64,000 bases of DNA from a virus. The notes under the pieces are model-generated. The model searched no databases, had not been told where the DNA came from, and saw nothing but the letters and a program-made list of their open reading frames with translations. Location of the stretch: positions 1-64,000 of the IMG/VR virus record IMGVR_UViG_3300028581_002181; one strand, given 5' to 3'. A program made the translations under genes and the position numbers. This document shows positions 1,435 through 39,921 of the stretch, piece after piece; within the stretch, counting starts at the first letter, position 1, and each line of letters starts with the position of its first letter.

Positions 1435-1563
1435 ATGATAACCACCATATTGAACATTGCCACACTGCTGTTGATCATAGGCATGGCCTGGCACATTTGG
1501 CACGGTGACGAACAAGATCAGATGAAAAAACAACGTAGACCTCGCGATCCCAAACACAAGTAG
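1435..1563 (+). CDS. Small single-TM protein (42 aa)
   Basis: SD AAGGAG at 1421-1426, ATG 1435, hydrophobic N-terminus ILNIATLLLIIGMAWHIW, basic tail. Confidence 0.6.
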   Translation: MITTILNIATLLLIIGMAWHIWHGDEQDQMKKQRRPRDPKHK

Positions 1564-1564
1564 T

Positions 1565-1920
1565 GGACGAACCAGTTCGTCCAAGTGATCGCTGCGCTCT
1601 CACTGTTTGAATCAATCAAGTTGCGAAGCAACTGCTCGCTCATACAGATAGCGGATCCATACTTCTCCCAGAACAGGGAGAAGTGGTGACGTCATACGAG
1701 ATGAGCACGCCATCTTGAACAGCCATCACTACACGGGGCGGTAGCCCTATACCCCCTCAGGCTGACTTCATTGCTACGGAACACGGGATCAGCGGTTCAA
1801 GCCACTGATCTGTGTGGGTGTTGTGTCTTTTTCACAGAGCACCATCCTTTTTGCCTACAGTGCAACTCAGGATTCACTTTCCCTTGCGGGTGCATTTCCT
1901 GGATCTCACGATCACCAGTG
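1565..1920 (-). ncRNA. Candidate ~350-nt structured non-coding RNA (unassigned family)
   Basis: No credible ORF; 186/360 G+C counted over 1561-1920. Closing helix GGUGAUCGU(1916-1908)/GCGAUCACU(1592-1584), CCC-GCAA-GGG GNRA hairpin, 9-bp hairpins at 1810-1787 and 1684-1661, and G-U pairs that work only on the minus strand. Confidence 0.55.
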
Positions 1921-1923
1921 TTG

Positions 1924-2358
1924 CTATGGTTTTGCCTTGAGCCTTTTTAATTCTTCTCGCAGCAGATTGCTGCCGCCTATTCTCACATTGATGATGCCAT
2001 TGTAGTATTCATCTGATTCCAACACTCTGCGTTCAAACTGTTCCAAAGCCTCCAAATAGCCCATCACGCCTCGGCTGCGACAGATGTACAATATTTCTCG
2101 AGTGAATTGATCCATTCCCAAACGCTGCACATCCTGCAACAACTGTTCATTGCTGCCCCAGTAGTCTTTCCAGTCACTCTCCACCCGGCTTCTGCGTCGG
2201 TTCACTCGGCCTTTGAGTGGTGGTCGTGATTTTTTGAACTGGGCCAATTTCTTGCCCACGTACTTGCGACCTGTTTGAAGATTGGTGATGAGATACACAA
2301 ATCCTTCAGTGCCCATCGGCAGAGAATCTATGGGTTGACCTTGATACATCCATGACAT
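1924..2358 (-). CDS. Stand-alone GIY-YIG endonuclease (Seg-like / endonuclease II-like)
   Basis: GFVYLITNLQTGRKYVGKK motif, downstream YWGS and conserved Glu, YYNGII tail. 144 aa with no appended DNA-binding domain. Confidence 0.85.
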   Translation of the reverse strand: MSWMYQGQPIDSLPMGTEGFVYLITNLQTGRKYVGKKLAQFKKSRPPLKGRVNRRRSRVESDWKDYWGSNEQLLQDVQRLGMDQFTREILYICRSRGVMGYLEALEQFERRVLESDEYYNGIINVRIGGSNLLREELKRLKAKP

Positions 2359-2363
2359 GCCAT

Positions 2364-2369
2364 TACTTA
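2364..2369 (-). promoter_or_regulatory. Putative late promoter variant TAAGTA, 5 nt before ATG
   Basis: Minus strand reads TAAGTA-atggc-ATG(2358). Confidence 0.45.
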
Positions 2370-2433
2370 CATCAGTGAGATTTCATCCAGCAGAGTCTTG
2401 GATCTTTGTGATATTTTGGCAGTGATTGAAAAG

Positions 2434-2517
2434 TTTTGGTAACCAAAAGGCACACAAAATTTTTGCGCCGCAGTTTTGTACTTCGTACAAACTATAGTGT
2501 CTACCGCAGCGGCTGCG
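2434..2517. repeat. Cluster of short inverted repeats
   Basis: TTTTGGT-A-ACCAAAA (2434-2448), AGTTTTGTAC-TTC-GTACAAACT (2472-2493), CGCAGC-G-GCTGCG (2505-2517). Confidence 0.6.
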
Positions 2518-2522
2518 CCGTG

Positions 2523-2731: not shown

Positions 2732-4510
2732 CTATATCTCGTGAAATTCAGTTGAATTGCTGTAGGAAGTGAATCCATTTTCTTTGATCACTTTGAGTGT
2801 GTTGTTGACCCTACCCATTAGTTCATCTCTGTGGCTGATCAGATATATGCTCTTGCCACGCTCTCTACTCATGCGTTTCAGTATGGCAATGGATGATTCC
2901 ACACCCGCTGTGTCCAATCCAGAATCAATCAATTCATCTATGAACAACAGATTGATCTCTTGATACAAACTTTCCCACACATCTCTGAATGCAAAGCTCA
3001 ATCCCAATATCAATCTATTGCGCTCACCTCTGCTGAGATTGTCAAAGTCAAGTTCTTGGCCCAACATGGTAATCTGCACACTCAAATCGTTTTTGAATGT
3101 CACTGTGTGCGGCAAGCCCAATGCTGTGAGATAGTGTGTGAGCCTGTTGTTTAAGAAAGCCAAATTCTGATCTATGATCTTCTTTCTGATAAAACTGTCC
3201 TTGTTGGTCAACAGTTTTAACAAAAATTCTTGATGATCTTTGAGCGTTTGCAAACGATTCACTTCACTCCAGTCCAGTTCTTGCAATGCTTCTGTGCTGA
3301 GTTCTGTGATTTGATCCACATAAGGATTTTGTTCTGCTTGTTTGTTTTTTAGTGTGGATTTATAAGTTTCCAGATGTTGTCTGTGCTCATATGCTTCTTT
3401 GACAGTGTCATAGTATGTGTCTGGACGTGTGTCTTGTGTGCCCATGAGTTTGATGGCTTCATCTATCACTGCTATTTCAGACTGTATGCTTTGATTGTAG
3501 TTGACTGCTTCACCATATTCTTCTTCCAACTTGCGTTGTATTTCACAAAATTTATCATTGTGTAATTCCTGACCACAGGCATAACAAGTGGCTTTGTCAT
3601 ACAGTTTATCCAGATCATTGCCCACTTTATTAACTGTTTTGTCTGCCTGCAGCAGCGTCATTTCCAAACTGCTCTTATCTTTTTGTAATTGTTTCAGTTC
3701 ATTGCTGAATTTGGTCCATTCTTCCAACTGTTGATGTGTGGCCAACTCTTGATCAATGTCCACAGACTCCAGTTCCTTGATGGATTTATTCAGTTTTTCA
3801 ATGTCCAAATTCTTTTGTGTGTTCCAAATTTTTTCTTTGTTGCTCAATGAGTTGATGGTTTCTTTGATCTTTTCATTGCTCATTTTGAGACCTTCCAAAC
3901 GTGCATTTTCCATGGCCATGTCTTCTTTGCTGACTCTGATGCGATCTTTCAACAGTTCTGCTTTTTCGCTCAGCAGTGTGATGCCCAACAACTGTTCTAT
4001 GATGTCTTTTTGATCATTGGCACTCATGCTCAAGAACGGTTCTGTGTATGTGTTCAATGCCAATATGTGTTTGAACATGGCATGTGATAATCCCAACATG
4101 TGATTGATAGCAGCCTGAGTCATTCTGCTGTCTCCTTGGCTCTCATCAGTGATCTCTTGTTCACTGTCATTGATAAAATATCTTAGAGTGTTGGGGCGTC
4201 TGCCTCTTTCAATGCGATATTTCACACCATCCTTTTCAAAAGTCAGTGTGACCAACATGTTTTTGTTGTTGGTCTTGTTGACCAAATTCTCTCTGCGTAT
4301 TTTTGTTAATGCTTCACCAAACAGTCCATAACTCAGTGCATTGATCAGTGTGGTTTTACCAGTGCCGTTTCTGCTGCCTGCATCATCTCCACCTTGATCC
4401 AAGTTTTCACCCAACACCAATGTGAGTCTTTGTTTGTCCAGCATCACTCCTTGGGTCTGATTGCCCACACTCATGAAATTTTTAACTGTTAGACTCTTAA
4501 TTTTTATCAT
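2732..4510 (-). CDS. gp46: Recombination exonuclease ATPase subunit, T4 gp46 (Rad50/SbcC-like)
   Basis: Walker A GTGKTT, coiled coil with zinc-hook CYAC, signature LSRGE, Walker B LLFIDE, ISH loop. Confidence 0.95.
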   Translation of the reverse strand: MIKIKSLTVKNFMSVGNQTQGVMLDKQRLTLVLGENLDQGGDDAGSRNGTGKTTLINALSYGLFGEALTKIRRENLVNKTNNKNMLVTLTFEKDGVKYRIERGRRPNTLRYFINDSEQEITDESQGDSRMTQAAINHMLGLSHAMFKHILALNTYTEPFLSMSANDQKDIIEQLLGITLLSEKAELLKDRIRVSKEDMAMENARLEGLKMSNEKIKETINSLSNKEKIWNTQKNLDIEKLNKSIKELESVDIDQELATHQQLEEWTKFSNELKQLQKDKSSLEMTLLQADKTVNKVGNDLDKLYDKATCYACGQELHNDKFCEIQRKLEEEYGEAVNYNQSIQSEIAVIDEAIKLMGTQDTRPDTYYDTVKEAYEHRQHLETYKSTLKNKQAEQNPYVDQITELSTEALQELDWSEVNRLQTLKDHQEFLLKLLTNKDSFIRKKIIDQNLAFLNNRLTHYLTALGLPHTVTFKNDLSVQITMLGQELDFDNLSRGERNRLILGLSFAFRDVWESLYQEINLLFIDELIDSGLDTAGVESSIAILKRMSRERGKSIYLISHRDELMGRVNNTLKVIKENGFTSYSNSTEFHEI

Positions 4511-5514
4511 TGTAGATCTCTGTAAATTTCCAGCAGTGTGTTTTTGTTGTAGCTGTCGGATTCTATGGCATTGATTTCTTTGCTGACAATTTCATCCACA
4601 GATTCAAAACGTGTGATATCCAGTGTGCTGGTCATTTCATCATCTTTTTTGCCAGGAATCAGCACAATTTCTCTGCAGTTGTAATCTTTTATAAAAGTTT
4701 CTTTGATAAAACTGGCTTCTTCATAGCTGATGTCTATGTCCAATGTGACTTGCAAGTGCATCTTGGGCAGTATGATATTCTTTGCATCATTTAATAATTG
4801 ACTCAGATTGACTTTCAAATATCTTGGACAATTGTACCAATTGATGTATCTGGGAGTGCCACCATGTTCCATGATCATCATACCACGCTGATCATCATTC
4901 ACATCTGCATAGTTGTGTGGCATAGGATTGCCAATGTAATGTATGTTTCTTGCTGTTTGTCTCTTGTGAAAATGTCCTGTGAACACATATTCTGGATGCA
5001 CAAAATCCACTGCTTGTATCAATCCAGTGTCTGGCATTTCTATCATGGCGTTCATTAAAAAGTGTGGCAATTCAAAATGACCAAACATGTATCTGCTTTT
5101 GATTTTTTTGATCTGTTTGTATTCATCTCCCACCAACCAAGGCACCAAAGTCACATCATCTATGGTGGTGGTTTCTGTGATCACAGTGATTCCTGGAATG
5201 AATCTTGCAAACTCCACTGAGTGAATATCACGCTTGTCCTTGTAGTACAGATCGTGATTGCCAGGAAAGAAATAAAATTTTTCAAATGCTTTGCCCAGTT
5301 TTTCCAAACATTTGATGGAAACATCCATGGTCATCAAATTTAATGAATTTCTATTGTGATGCCAGTCACCACAGAATATGCCTGTTTCGCAATTGTTTTG
5401 TTTGGCTTGTTCTATGAACCAATCCACGAATTCTTCACAATCTTGATTGTGAATCATGCTGTTGCTCTTCAAGCCAAAATGTATGTCAGTAAAGACTGCT
5501 GCTTTTTTAAACAT
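4507..5514 (-). CDS. gp47: Recombination endonuclease subunit, T4 gp47 (Mre11/SbcD-like)
   Basis: Metallophosphoesterase motifs DIH, GD, GNHD, GHF, GHFH; coupled to gp46. ATG at 5514. Confidence 0.95.
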   Translation of the reverse strand: MFKKAAVFTDIHFGLKSNSMIHNQDCEEFVDWFIEQAKQNNCETGIFCGDWHHNRNSLNLMTMDVSIKCLEKLGKAFEKFYFFPGNHDLYYKDKRDIHSVEFARFIPGITVITETTTIDDVTLVPWLVGDEYKQIKKIKSRYMFGHFELPHFLMNAMIEMPDTGLIQAVDFVHPEYVFTGHFHKRQTARNIHYIGNPMPHNYADVNDDQRGMMIMEHGGTPRYINWYNCPRYLKVNLSQLLNDAKNIILPKMHLQVTLDIDISYEEASFIKETFIKDYNCREIVLIPGKKDDEMTSTLDITRFESVDEIVSKEINAIESDSYNKNTLLEIYRDLQ

Positions 5515-5537
5515 CAAATATAAATTTCCAAGACTTC

Positions 5538-5570: not shown

Positions 5571-6395
5571 TTAAATTTTCTTTTTGAATTCCCGGTCCAC
5601 AGCATTTTGATATGCTTCTGCGTTTTGACGTGTGTGACTGGGCATCATGTCATTCATTTCCAGAATGTCATCTCTGATATTTTGATTTCTTTTTTCGATA
5701 TTGATGATTCTCACAAATGAATTGGTCACGGCTGCTGTGTAGTAAGCAAATGGATTGTTAGACTTTGATTCATCAAATTGCAAACCAATCTGAGTCAACT
5801 GCAGTATGGCTTGTCCTTGCATCTCATCATTATAAGTGTAACCTCTCACATTGCCTCGGGTGGCATAGCGCTCACACAGTTTCATCCACATCATGGCCAG
5901 TTTGTTTGTGGGCTTGCCGCCCTCTTTAGTAAACTTGCCATTGTGCATGCCACCTTCCCAGTGACTTTTGCCCACACATGAAAGATGGTCTTTCTCGTCA
6001 TACTTCCAATGTTGGAAAGCTGGAAAGTTCACTTTGATTTTGGAGTCTGCGGAACTCTTGGGATTTTTTTTACGACCTGGTTCATTGGGTATGTGATCAT
6101 AGGTCATGACTCTAAACACCAAGTCTTCTTTTTTAATTTTTTTGTAATCCACTTCGCACTCAGACAATTTAACTTTGGGATTCACTGCTTTGCGTTTTTC
6201 AAACTCTTCCTGCGCTAATCGTTTGGCTCTGGCACGTTTGGCTTCTGCTATGGTTCTCACATTGATGCGTTCCAAGGATGACACAATGGCATCGTATCTG
6301 TGATGCTCGTCTTTGGTGTAGCTGCAATAGCTGTTCTTGGATTTGTGTATCTCTTCCAACAGATCTTTGTTGTTTAGATAGTTGATTTTTTTCAT
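5571..6395 (-). CDS. gp55: Late-transcription sigma factor, T4 gp55-like
   Basis: NYLNNKDLL start, RGYTYNDEM, FDESKSNNPFAYYT, EKRNQNIRD; next to gp47/gp46 as in T4-like phages. Confidence 0.85.
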   Translation of the reverse strand: MKKINYLNNKDLLEEIHKSKNSYCSYTKDEHHRYDAIVSSLERINVRTIAEAKRARAKRLAQEEFEKRKAVNPKVKLSECEVDYKKIKKEDLVFRVMTYDHIPNEPGRKKNPKSSADSKIKVNFPAFQHWKYDEKDHLSCVGKSHWEGGMHNGKFTKEGGKPTNKLAMMWMKLCERYATRGNVRGYTYNDEMQGQAILQLTQIGLQFDESKSNNPFAYYTAAVTNSFVRIINIEKRNQNIRDDILEMNDMMPSHTRQNAEAYQNAVDREFKKKI

Positions 6396-39487: not shown

Positions 39488-39520
39488 ACCATTTAACACA
39501 TAGCCAAAATTCTACACATC

Positions 39521-39564
39521 TAAATAACATTGCAGTTGACTTTGCAAACAAAAAGTGATATACT
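39521..39564 (+). promoter_or_regulatory. Tandem late (TAAATA 39521-39526) and sigma70 (TTGACT-17-TATACT 39536-39564) promoters
   Basis: Read directly from the sequence; SD AGGAG at 39571-39575 before ATG 39580. Confidence 0.75.
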
Positions 39565-39579
39565 TTTAATAGGAGAATT

Positions 39580-39921
39580 ATGAATAAAAAAAACATAACA
39601 CAAGACAGCATAGCCATATCTATTGAAATGATAAACTTTAATAATCAGTTAAAATTACTGAAAGATCAATTTATTGACAGCAACATATTTTTTTGTCAAG
39701 GATCGCAGTTTACTGTGAATCATTATCTATTGCAGTTATGTCAAAATTATATTGAACGCAAAAGGGATAAAGATGTGGTTTTATTGGATGATTTTCAAAA
39801 TCCAGTTTTAGTGACTGATCTTATTTCATTCCATGATACTGCGTGGAATCTATATCAAACAAATCTTAATCAATACTATACAGAGTATCAACATCTTTTA
39901 TCAAATAAAGGAAAAGTGTAA
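39580..39921 (+). CDS. Hypothetical protein heading the glycosyltransferase operon
   Basis: 113 aa, strong SD and promoter; no motif recognised. Confidence 0.75.
   Translation: MNKKNITQDSIAISIEMINFNNQLKLLKDQFIDSNIFFCQGSQFTVNHYLLQLCQNYIERKRDKDVVLLDDFQNPVLVTDLISFHDTAWNLYQTNLNQYYTEYQHLLSNKGKV

What the first reader, a model, noticed from the sequence alone, without database searches (positions are those of the whole stretch)
1565..1920. Unassigned ~350-nt highly structured RNA directly downstream of a stand-alone GIY-YIG nuclease
Seen: the longest non-coding stretch in an otherwise packed window, about 52% G+C by count (186/360). On the minus strand it folds as a closed multi-helix domain starting about 7 nt after the nuclease stop. 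Elements: closing helix 1916-1908/1592-1584; CAGGA..CCC-GCAA-GGG..UCCUG arm (1901-1868); GGUG/CACC+UGUG/CACA arm; ACAC-GAUCAGUGG/CCGCUGAUC-GUGU arm; UGAA-CAGCC/GGCUG-UUCA arm enclosing a GGGG/CCCC hairpin; UGCUCAU/AUGAGCG enclosing ACUUCUCCC/GGGAGAAGU; AGUUGC/GCAACU; terminal GGACGAA/UUCGUCC hairpin. Several pairs are G-U on the minus strand but A-C on the plus strand, giving the nuclease's own orientation. Established: OMEGA RNAs (TnpB/IscB) and group I introns are structured RNAs co-transcribed with nucleases. Inference: a new phage ncRNA, possibly a partner or regulator of the compact GIY-YIG protein that has no DNA-binding domain of its own. This is the best candidate for an undescribed system here.
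Basis: partly seen in the sequence, partly recalled or inferred. Interest (0 to 1): 0.8.

Follow-up and report, generated by a model that had tools for sequence, protein, structure and literature searches.

The report
Large phage RNA beside GIY-YIG nuclease
A real, intricately folded non-coding RNA of about 360 nt follows a small nuclease gene in this uncultured T4-like freshwater phage. It belongs to a large family of which only one 141-nt piece (Rfam Polynucleobacter-1) was known, and it carries two always-identical sequence tags whose role, possibly docking the dimeric nuclease, is untested.

Summary
Window 1565-1926 (minus strand) encodes a structured RNA of about 360 nt. It starts at the stop codon of a 144-aa SegE-type GIY-YIG gene (1924-2358). 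G-U pairs and UUCG/GNRA loops place the RNA on the nuclease strand.

It is not wholly new. The window gives no Rfam hit. However, sister loci carry Rfam Polynucleobacter-1 (RF01718, function unknown, Weinberg 2010) in the same position, followed by a core and 3' domain homologous to the window RNA. The full RNAs (360-560 nt) are undescribed.

All 225 RNA copies lie downstream of the nuclease gene on the same strand. RNA-less homologues of the nuclease exist (Melnitz, cyanophages). A partial 3' module (L222) is the only RNA match found without the gene nearby.

Each RNA holds two repeat elements whose hexamers are identical in 225 of 225 loci, across 11 variants. The protein is predicted to be a symmetric homodimer.

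Best reading (about 0.4): an RNA partner or regulator of the nuclease dimer. Guide function is not shown.

The parts
1924..2358 (-). SegE-type GIY-YIG nuclease gene, 144 aa, catalytic domain only
   Evidence: Pfam PF19835 E 2.3e-32 covering profile 1-123. phrog_447. 239 homologues are all about 139-146 aa, with 82% mean column identity in A5. AF2 pLDDT 85; the best PDB match is the I-TevI catalytic domain, but weakly.
1565..1926 (-). Whole structured RNA (about 360 nt), from the UAG stop codon to the end of the terminal hairpin
   Evidence: CM R1 hit at 1565-1923, 350 bits. Covariation. No Rfam hit.
1862..1924 (-). Clade-specific 5' domain: P1 (G of the stop codon + CAAC with GUUGC), P2 tetraloop hairpin (1913-1902), P3/P3b arm (1901-1868). 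It takes the place of the Polynucleobacter-1 domain of sister clades
   Evidence: Alignments A1/A2. The P2 and P3b stems covary; P1 and P3 are invariant. Divergent relatives have other 5' domains.
1817..1843 (-). P4/P4a hairpin GGUG-CUC-UGUG-AAAAAGA-CACA-A-CACC with the conserved CUCUGNGAAAAAG motif
   Evidence: helices 1-2: GC/AU exchange in 13 sequences, 100% paired inner stem.
1781..1815 (-). P5 variable hairpin
   Evidence: helix 3: 11 of 13 pairs change on both sides.
1721..1777 (-). Pseudoknotted core: PK strand GUAGC 1777-1773 with GCUAC 1745-1741 (in the loop of P8); P7 AGCC 1763-1760 with GGCU 1724-1721; P8 GGGG 1756-1753 with CCCC 1738-1735
   Evidence: helices 4-6: the PK is 100% paired with 4 of 5 pairs covarying. 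Independent detection.
1691..1719 (-). Twin element R1 (..GAUGGCGUGCUCAUCUC-GUAUGA); hexamer at 1697-1692
1661..1684 (-). P10 hairpin ACUUCUCCC/GGGAGAAGU between the twin elements
   Evidence: helix 7 (96.8% paired). helix 1.
1639..1660 (-). Twin element R2 (..AUGGAUCCGCUAUCU-GUAUGA); hexamer at 1645-1640, identical to that of R1
   Evidence: hexamers identical in 225 of 225 loci, 11 variants.
1619..1633 (-). P11 hairpin with UUCG loop
   Evidence: helix 8: 5 of 6 pairs covary.
1584..1604 (-). P12 hairpin with the conserved interior GAGCG-NN-AGCGA (readable as G-C pairs, tandem G.A and a GNNA tetraloop). This is the family-wide signature
   Evidence: The pattern TTGAGCGNNAGCGAAAA found more than 120 contigs. 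Searches (helix 9; helix 3).
1565..1582 (-). P13 terminal hairpin GGACGAA-CUGG-UUCGUCC. It has no U tract and abuts the stop of the convergent 42-aa ORF (1435-1563)
   Evidence: helix 4: 7 of 7 pairs covary. No terminator call.

Best explanation
Window 1565-1926 (minus strand) encodes a structured RNA of about 360 nt. It is made in the sense of the SegE-type GIY-YIG gene, most likely as the 3' extension of that gene's transcript. It belongs to a large family of 360-560-nt RNAs that follow this nuclease gene in uncultured aquatic T4-like phages. Some sister clades use the Rfam Polynucleobacter-1 motif as their 5' domain; the window has its own 62-nt 5' domain. The pseudoknotted core is shared with those Polynucleobacter-1 clades, and the 3' domain is shared across the whole family. 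The following are shown: conservation, covariation, strand, homology to the Polynucleobacter-1-bearing RNAs, strict gene linkage, and two repeat elements (CUC-N6 and UCU-N6, about 50 nt apart, flanking hairpin P10) whose hexamers are always identical. The following is inferred: the RNA works through the nuclease. The protein is predicted to be a two-fold symmetric homodimer. I propose that the scaffold presents the two identical, apparently unpaired tags to the two protomers, or that both tags read one nucleic-acid sequence. This would form an RNP in which the RNA either directs or restrains the nuclease. Which of the two applies is open.
For: (1) It is a real RNA on this strand. 86.4% of cells are paired, against 72% in shuffles and 44% when slid; 37 of 61 pairs covary, including the pseudoknot. 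The 3' domain holds across 64 diverse sequences: 79% against 62% paired, covariation 0.346 against 0.12. G-U 171 against A-C 80.
(2) Linkage. Of 239 loci with a full-length homologue (47-97% aa identity), 225 have the RNA signature downstream on the same strand. Six are too short to tell. The rest are Melnitz, three MAG contigs, two cultured phages, and L180/L197, which carry an insertion between gene and RNA. Linkage survives swaps of the RNA's 5' domain.
(3) The dependence runs one way. No complete RNA was found without the gene, whereas the gene occurs without the RNA.
(4) The RNA begins at the stop codon, whose G lies in helix P1. No separate promoter-like site was found. Contigs from four lake RNA libraries of four studies span the ORF-RNA junction (records 2, 5, 7, 9); DNA carry-over is not excluded.
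(5) The twin hexamers are identical in 225 of 225 loci through 11 variants, and the protein tree needs at least 9 switches (19 by parsimony). They have no internal complement and are unpaired in the consensus fold.
(6) Homodimer model: score 0.70, best of 3 controls 0.00. That mark was reached by 20 of 30 proteins solved as pairs of one chain and by 1 of 23 solved as single chains. The runs agree in at least 96% of contacts, and partner pLDDT is at least 88. The symmetric interface uses residues 101-137, including the invariant YYNGIINVR strand. My own alignment was used, so those counts hold only roughly.
Against: Equally short homologues in Melnitz (63% identity), P-SSM2, P-TIM68, S-SRM01 and phiN3 have no such RNA, so the protein family works without it. 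No protein column tracks the hexamer variants beyond what phylogeny explains, so protein read-out of the variable letters has no support. No long variable guide-like segment was found. No complement of the tags was found in the loci or in the 116-kb genome record. Conserved synteny plus co-transcription could produce the linkage without any physical interaction. No binding, processing or expression data exist, and the RNA-library contigs show no discrete ends.
Confidence: 0.4

Rival explanations
1. An independent phage ncRNA that acts on the host or on phage processes (a decoy, sponge or scaffold for a host factor or nucleic acid). It shares a transcription unit with the GIY-YIG gene, and the twin tags bind the same host RNA, DNA or protein twice.
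For: The RNA is far larger and more elaborate than a simple protein-binding site needs to be. The tag variants do not track protein residues, which fits a partner outside the phage that differs between hosts. The nuclease family does not need the RNA. Other large phage-borne ncRNAs of unknown function exist (GOLLD, ROOL; own knowledge).
Against: No complete RNA copy was found away from the gene in 225 loci, despite exchange of the RNA's 5' domain and divergence down to 47% aa identity. The RNA starts at the stop codon. No trans target has been identified.
Confidence: 0.25
2. A cis-acting 3' element of the nuclease mRNA. It would be a stability or processing module, or an autoregulatory site, that sets the dose of a potentially toxic nuclease. 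One version is a substrate-mimic decoy carrying two copies of the enzyme's preferred site.
For: Its position as a 3' extension, with the stop codon inside helix P1, means a terminating ribosome must open P1. The terminal hairpin has no U tract. Regulation of homing-endonuclease expression by RNA structure is known in T4 (own knowledge). The dependence is one way: the RNA needs the gene, not the reverse.
Against: 360-560 nt with a pseudoknot, several conserved junctions and swappable domains is far more than known 3' stabilisers carry. RNA-less homologues manage without it. In some clades the RNA starts 90-145 nt after the stop codon.
Confidence: 0.2
3. A DNA-level element, such as iterons or palindromes of a replication origin or another protein-binding site, rather than an RNA.
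For: It contains two direct repeats with identical hexamers and many inverted repeats. The single-sequence folding z-score is the same on both strands.
Against: Compensatory changes keep the pairing, G-U pairs outnumber A-C by about 2 to 1, and UUCG/GNRA loops occur on one strand only. The pseudoknot covaries. The region is present in RNA libraries.
Confidence: 0.03
4. A decayed coding region, for example the lost C-terminal DNA-binding domain of a Seg-type endonuclease, or a known RNA class such as a two-piece tmRNA or a group I intron.
For: Seg and I-TevI relatives carry a C-terminal DNA-binding domain (own knowledge). The Melnitz paper reports a two-piece tmRNA (own knowledge; this prompted the check).
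Against: All 239 homologues stop at 139-146 aa. All frames carry stops. The conservation pattern is one of base pairs, not codons. ARAGORN finds nothing. There is no Rfam tmRNA, group I or other hit even at E up to 10. There is no downstream exon, because the next genes are convergent.
Confidence: 0.01

Closest known systems
Polynucleobacter-1 RNA motif (Rfam RF01718; Weinberg et al. 2010, PMC2864571)
   Same: Same genomic niche: directly downstream of, and co-oriented with, the same GIY-YIG gene family (GOS11034 / PSSM2_218). In L177, L179, L190, L233, L264 and L303 the motif is followed by a core and 3' domain that the window-derived models R1 and R2 recognise. Found only in uncultured aquatic sequences. 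Function unknown.
   Different: The window RNA gives no RF01718 hit even at E up to 10. Its 62-nt 5' domain is unrelated in sequence. The Rfam model covers 141 nt. The pseudoknotted core, the twin elements and the 3' domain (another 300-400 nt) are not part of any described family.
OMEGA RNAs (TnpB and IscB omegaRNA; HEARO)
   Same: A large structured RNA encoded next to, and touching the end of, a small nuclease gene, and conserved together with it.
   Different: The nuclease is GIY-YIG, not RuvC or HNH. There are no transposon ends. There is no variable guide of 16 nt or more at an RNA end. The only co-varying single-stranded letters are two identical hexamers. RNA-less homologues are common. 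RNA-guided cleavage is untested.
Group I introns carrying GIY-YIG homing endonucleases (I-TevI in T4 td)
   Same: A T4-like phage, an I-TevI-like catalytic domain, and a structured RNA on the same transcript.
   Different: No exons (the next genes are convergent). No Rfam group I hit. A different helix order. The ORF precedes the RNA rather than sitting in one of its loops. The protein lacks the DNA-binding domain.
Type III toxin-antitoxin systems (ToxIN): an RNA that binds and inhibits the adjacent nuclease
   Same: A repeat-bearing RNA encoded beside a nuclease, with a possible inhibitory RNP.
   Different: Type III antitoxins are short tandem repeats located upstream of an endoribonuclease toxin. 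Here there is one large pseudoknotted RNA located downstream of a GIY-YIG protein, with only two imperfect repeat elements.
Large phage-associated ncRNAs of unknown function (GOLLD, ROOL)
   Same: Hundreds of nucleotides, multi-domain, phage-borne, discovered by comparative genomics.
   Different: No sequence or model similarity. Those RNAs are not tied to one protein gene.

Membership tests
Rfam RF01718 Polynucleobacter-1 | Match to the covariance model at or above the gathering score (37 bits) | tested here: not met
   No hit in the window at gathering threshold or at E up to 10. Sister loci score 87-118 bits.
Rfam RF01718 Polynucleobacter-1 | Location downstream of a GOS11034 / PSSM2_218-family gene | tested here: met
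   The window gene is 39% identical to PSSM2_218, E 4e-24. The RNA starts at its stop codon.
Extended GIY-YIG-downstream RNA family (defined here: core + 3' domain) | Match to the 3'-domain model R2 built from 64 diverse loci, and to the core model R1 | tested here: met
   Window 1552-1722 scores 74.8 bits, E 6e-18 with R2 (the window was in the training set). R1, built from the window clade, hits Polynucleobacter-1-bearing loci at 33-54 bits.
Extended GIY-YIG-downstream RNA family (defined here) | Twin elements CUC-N6 / UCU-N6 with identical hexamers flanking a hairpin | tested here: met
   GUAUGA at 1697-1692 and 1645-1640. 225 of 225 loci.
OMEGA / RNA-guided nuclease systems | A variable guide segment (about 16 nt or more) at an RNA end, complementary to a target or flanking DNA | tested here: not met
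   Variable positions are short loops and the two hexamers. No complement was found in the loci or in the 116-kb record.
OMEGA / RNA-guided nuclease systems | RuvC or HNH nuclease of the TnpB/IscB lineage within a transposon | tested here: not met
   The protein is a SegE-type GIY-YIG. The flanks are ordinary T4-like genes.
OMEGA / RNA-guided nuclease systems | RNA-dependent target cleavage | not testable with these tools
   Needs biochemistry.
Group I intron | Rfam Intron_gpI match and flanking exons of a host gene | tested here: not met
   No hit at E up to 10. The downstream genes are convergent.
tmRNA (including two-piece forms) | tRNA-like domain plus tag reading frame, detectable by ARAGORN or the Rfam tmRNA models | tested here: not met
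   ARAGORN finds no genes. No Rfam hit.
SegE-type GIY-YIG nuclease (Pfam PF19835) | Profile match above the cut-off, with the GIY and YIG motifs and conserved Arg/Glu/Asn | tested here: met
   112 bits against a cut-off of 25. GFVY, KYVG, E103 and YYNG are invariant in A5.
Seg / I-TevI homing endonucleases | A C-terminal DNA-binding domain joined to the catalytic domain | tested here: not met
   The protein is 144 aa, and all homologues are 139-146 aa. The model shows only the catalytic domain plus C-terminal helices.

The most novel reading that the evidence does not exclude
The RNA is the specificity subunit of a new kind of ribonucleoprotein nuclease. A GIY-YIG homodimer would be held on a pseudoknotted scaffold, and the scaffold's two identical tags would base-pair with a repeated or two-fold target sequence in host or competitor nucleic acid. 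This would be an RNA-directed GIY-YIG enzyme unrelated to CRISPR or OMEGA systems.
Probability: 0.1. Interest if true: 0.95.

Novelty: new variant of a known kind. Interest (0 to 1): 0.72.

Why it matters
Very few nuclease families are known to work with a dedicated structured RNA. Here a highly conserved, domain-minimal GIY-YIG enzyme is tied to a large pseudoknotted RNA across hundreds of uncultured freshwater and marine T4-like phages. This work makes three points. First, a 2010 orphan Rfam motif is one interchangeable domain of a much larger RNA. Second, the RNA depends on the gene, not the reverse. Third, the RNA carries a rare signal: two distant hexamers that stay identical, not complementary, through 11 variants. 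That signal demands a common reader, which could be a protein dimer or one nucleic-acid sequence. If the RNA directs or gates the nuclease, it would be a new RNP nuclease architecture. If it does not, it is still one of the larger unexplained phage ncRNA classes, now with a testable structure.

Tried and rejected
- Rfam at gathering threshold and at E up to 10 on the window gave only a spurious frameshift-element match. ARAGORN found nothing.
- Decayed C-terminal domain: rejected.
- Two-piece tmRNA and group I intron: rejected.
- T4 EndoII (DenA) identity: suggested because the homologue in P-TIM68 sits in the position after nrdAB. There is no sequence hit to any PDB chain, and Foldseek ranks the I-TevI and PD-T4-3 GIY-YIG domains first, but weakly. 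Left open.
- blastn of three RNA types against 50,697 phage records: no match.
- Pattern hits inside gp32 genes (L088, L089, L146, L156) and in GC-rich contigs (for example L173, L174, L181, L193, L196) are chance matches.
- Internal complement of the twin hexamers: none at a consistent place. Complement elsewhere in the loci: none. In the 116-kb genome, only one exact 11-mer complement of R2 (at 86008) and none for R1; treated as chance.
- Antiparallel pairing of the two hexamers with each other, and k-turn or C/D-box readings, do not fit all variants (reasoned).
- Protein residues tracking the hexamer letters: none beyond what phylogeny explains.
- Promoter and terminator scan of 1300-2800: nothing relevant.
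- RNA-library contigs have low depth (3-17), are fragmented and show no discrete ends.
- A search for sites lacking the cassette, using the 196-aa convergent neighbour as query, returned only close relatives, and the three checked (L290-L292) carry both gene and RNA.
- mafft-qinsi was unavailable.
Full report
**Setting**

The window is part of a 116-kb viral record with T4-like gene content. A gp46-like ORF lies at 2732-4510, a gp47-like ORF at 4507-5517 and a gp55-like ORF at 5571-6395, all on the minus strand. The finding lies between two convergent genes. One is a 42-aa ORF (1435-1563, plus strand). The other is a 144-aa ORF (1924-2358, minus strand) that matches Pfam PF19835, the SegE-type GIY-YIG domain, over the whole profile (E 2.3e-32) and phrog_447.

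The 360 nt are non-coding. All minus-strand frames carry stops. G+C is 0.52. On a crude gene map this is the longest gap in the window. Folding energy alone is uninformative, because z is about -3 on both strands. The decisive evidence is comparative.

- A scan for relatives of the nuclease returned 80 viral loci, and the DNA downstream of the gene is conserved in them.
- Alignments A1/A2 and RNAalifold showed many compensatory changes.
- I drew a structure by hand and counted it on A4, a structure-blind MAFFT alignment of 28 core sequences. 86.4% of cells are paired, against 72% in shuffles (0 of 500 as high) and about 44% with slid partners. 37 of 61 pairs change on both sides. The covariation score is 0.407, against 0.17 in shuffles and about 0.1 when slid.
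- G-U/U-G cells (171) outnumber A-C/C-A cells (80). The UUCG and GNRA loops exist only on the minus strand. So the RNA is in the sense of the nuclease gene.

The long-range closing helix and the UGCUCAU/AUGAGCG pairing are not conserved. A pseudoknot was missed: GUAGC at 1777-1773 pairs with GCUAC at 1745-1741. It is 100% paired, and 4 of 5 pairs covary.

**Anatomy**

RNA position p corresponds to window coordinate 1924 - p.

- 5' domain: P1 is formed by the G of the UAG stop codon plus CAAC, paired with GUUGC. It encloses a tetraloop hairpin P2 and the arm P3/P3b.
- A conserved A-rich joiner (AGGCAAAAAGGAU).
- P4, with the motif CUCUGNGAAAAAG.
- A variable hairpin P5.
- The pseudoknotted P6-P7-P8 core.
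- Repeat element R1, hairpin P10, repeat element R2.
- A UUCG hairpin P11.
- P12, whose conserved interior GAGCG-NN-AGCGA(AAA) can be read as G-C pairs, tandem G.A and a GNNA tetraloop.
- A terminal hairpin P13 without a U tract. No terminator or promoter is called nearby.

**A much larger family, partly known**

Scanning viral contigs for the P12 signature (TTGAGCGNNAGCGAAAA) gave more than 120 further contigs. Wherever enough upstream DNA is present and the context is phage-like, a GIY-YIG homologue (47-75% identity) lies 320-630 nt upstream on the same strand.

Rfam then matched Polynucleobacter-1 (RF01718, 87-118 bits) in several of these loci, right after the nuclease stop codon. The window-derived model R1 hits the sequence after that motif in the same loci, for example L264 at 44.8 bits and L245 at 53.9 bits. 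By eye the same joiner, P4, P5, pseudoknot, R1-P10-R2, P11, P12 and P13 are present. So the window RNA is homologous to the core and 3' domain of RNAs whose 5' domain is the Rfam motif. The window itself has a different 62-nt 5' domain and gives no RF01718 hit. A third architecture (the L205 type) shares only the 3' domain and has no Rfam match.

Weinberg et al. 2010 (PMC2864571, supplement) described Polynucleobacter-1 as a 141-nt motif. They placed it downstream of genes of family GOS11034 with possible homology to PSSM2_218, and found it in no purified phage. PSSM2_218 is 39% identical to the window's nuclease (E 4e-24). The gene-RNA association was therefore glimpsed in 2010. The full RNA, its core, its 3' domain and its variants were not described. 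A full-text search found no other paper naming the motif.

The 3' domain structure holds family-wide on 64 diverse sequences: 79% paired against 62% in shuffles, covariation 0.346 against 0.12, 0 of 500 shuffles as high.

**Linkage and its direction**

With the 3'-domain model R2, every one of the first 80 nuclease loci that has enough downstream DNA carries the RNA, including all those that R1 had missed. Of 239 loci with a full-length homologue:

- 225 show the RNA's twin-element signature downstream (224, plus L209).
- 6 are too short to tell.
- 8 lack the signature within 800 nt: Melnitz, the MAG contigs L304-L306, S-SRM01, phiN3, and L180/L197. L180 and L197 do carry the RNA, but with about 0.9 kb inserted between gene and RNA.

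Whole-genome scans of Melnitz, S-SRM01, P-TIM68 and phiN3 with R2 found nothing significant. In P-SSM2 the next gene abuts the homologue. blastn found no cultured phage carrying any RNA type.

So the nuclease exists without the RNA, but no complete RNA was found without the nuclease. The one partial 3' module in a different context is L222. Melnitz keeps a CAUAGCAAC...GUUG remnant after its gene, followed by a late-promoter-like TATAAATA. This suggests the RNA was lost there.

**The twin elements**

R1 and R2 are imperfect copies of an element of about 25 nt. In the window R1 reads ..GAUGGCGUGCUCAUCUC-GUAUGA and R2 reads ..UAUGGAUCCGCUAUCU-GUAUGA. Each is followed by a hairpin.

The six letters after CUC (R1) and UCU (R2) are identical in both copies in all 225 loci, although they differ between lineages. 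The variants are GCAUGA (94 loci), ACAUGA (67), GUAUGA (26, including the window), AGAUAA (15), AGAUGA (7), GGAUAA (6), GCAUAA (6), GGAUGA (2), ACAGGA (1) and ACGUGA (1, L209). Five of the six positions vary somewhere, always in parallel, and the seventh letter usually follows too.

In a mutual-information scan these identity pairs rank among the strongest signals in the 3' domain. The fraction of sequences with the same letter in both columns is 0.91-1.00. The protein tree needs at least 9 switches, and 19 by parsimony, though the tree is poorly resolved.

This is not base pairing between the two copies. There is no complementary segment at a consistent place in the RNA, in the loci or, convincingly, in the 116-kb genome. 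The consensus fold leaves both copies unpaired. Two distant sites kept identical imply a common reader.

**The protein**

The protein is much more conserved than the RNA (82% mean column identity). The GIY and YIG motifs and the Glu and Asn residues are invariant. There is also an invariant basic insert (KK.RPPLKG..N.RR). The AF2 model is confident (pLDDT 85). The nearest solved folds are the I-TevI catalytic domain and the PD-T4-3 GIY-YIG enzyme, though only weakly.

A two-copy prediction passes its controls. The score is 0.70 and the best control is 0.00. That mark was reached by 20 of 30 proteins solved as homodimers and by 1 of 23 solved as monomers. The runs agree in at least 96% of contacts, and pLDDT is at least 88. 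My own alignment was used, so these counts hold only roughly. The symmetric interface is built from residues 101-137, including the invariant YYNGIINVR strand. This supports a symmetric dimer but does not show it. A dimer would match the two identical RNA tags. However, no protein column tracks the hexamer variants.

**Expression**

Parts of the stretch occur in many lake metatranscriptome assemblies. In four libraries from four studies, contigs cover the nuclease ORF and parts of the RNA and span their junction (records 2, 5, 7, 9). Depth is low (3-17). These are contigs, so neither strand, ends nor true transcription are shown.

**Interpretation**

Established:
- It is a genuine structured RNA on the nuclease strand.
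- It is homologous to the core and 3' domain of the Polynucleobacter-1-bearing RNAs.
- It is strictly and asymmetrically linked to a conserved, domain-minimal GIY-YIG gene.
- It carries twin identical tags.

Inferred (about 0.4): the RNA acts through the nuclease as an RNP, with the tags presented to the two protomers of a dimer, and it either directs or restrains the enzyme.

Rivals:
- An independent host-directed ncRNA that merely shares the transcript (0.25).
- A cis-acting 3' element or decoy that controls nuclease dose (0.2).
- A DNA-level element (0.03).
- Decayed coding sequence or a known RNA class (0.01).

A true RNA-guided GIY-YIG nuclease remains possible (about 0.1) but has no direct support.

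**Verdict**

It is a new variant, and a large extension, of a known but uncharacterised RNA motif family. Interest is high because of the nuclease linkage, the size and pseudoknotted architecture, and the unexplained parallel covariation of the twin tags.

Noticed in passing
L003, L004, L006-L010, L013, L028, L049, L053, L055, L062, L063 (contig ends 160-470 nt after the nuclease stop codon): Many IMG/VR contigs end inside or just after the RNA. RNA-library contigs also break near 1773-1777 and 1705-1730. This may reflect strain microdiversity in the hypervariable loops breaking the assemblies. It was not tested.
   Followed up: no
L082:4438-4490 (Melnitz, MZ577098): The RNA-less homologue in Methylophilales phage Melnitz is followed by CATAGCAAC...CATAGTTG and then TATAAATA (late-promoter-like). 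This looks like a remnant of helix P1 left after loss of the RNA.
   Followed up: partly
L222:1705-1856: A partial copy of the 3' module (UUCG-type hairpin, GAGCG..AGCGAAAA hairpin, terminal hairpin; R2 39.9 bits). It lacks the twin elements and has no GIY-YIG gene within 1.5 kb upstream, and its gene context is different.
   Followed up: partly
L180 and L197: The GIY-YIG match covers only residues 68-131 and lies about 1.3 kb upstream of the 3' motif. About 0.9 kb appears to be inserted between gene and RNA, or the gene is disrupted. The RNA itself is intact (R2 104.9 bits).
   Followed up: no
L226, L229, L246 and similar marine loci, just 3' of the terminal hairpin: A T4 late-promoter-like TATAAATA / ATAAATA follows the RNA's terminal hairpin on the same strand in several clades.
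   Followed up: no
window 39488-39832: This is the second-longest stretch without an ORF of 70 aa or more (345 nt) on a crude gene map. It has no Rfam hit at gathering threshold and was not examined further.
   Followed up: no
window 2359-2522: A gap of about 165 nt upstream of the nuclease gene (minus strand) that should hold its promoter. The sigma-70 scan found nothing there. Conservation was not examined.
   Followed up: no
L088, L089, L146, L156: The 18-mer GGTGAATCCTGAGTTGCA of the RNA's 5' domain also occurs by chance on the antisense strand of the C-terminal region of gp32-like genes.
   Followed up: yes
L300-L303 (genome contigs): MAG contigs binned as Neomarinimicrobiota, Crocinitomicaceae and Polynucleobacter carry the nuclease plus the RNA. 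They are probably mis-binned phage contigs. The Polynucleobacter MAG contig (L303) has RF01718 plus the 3' domain.
   Followed up: partly
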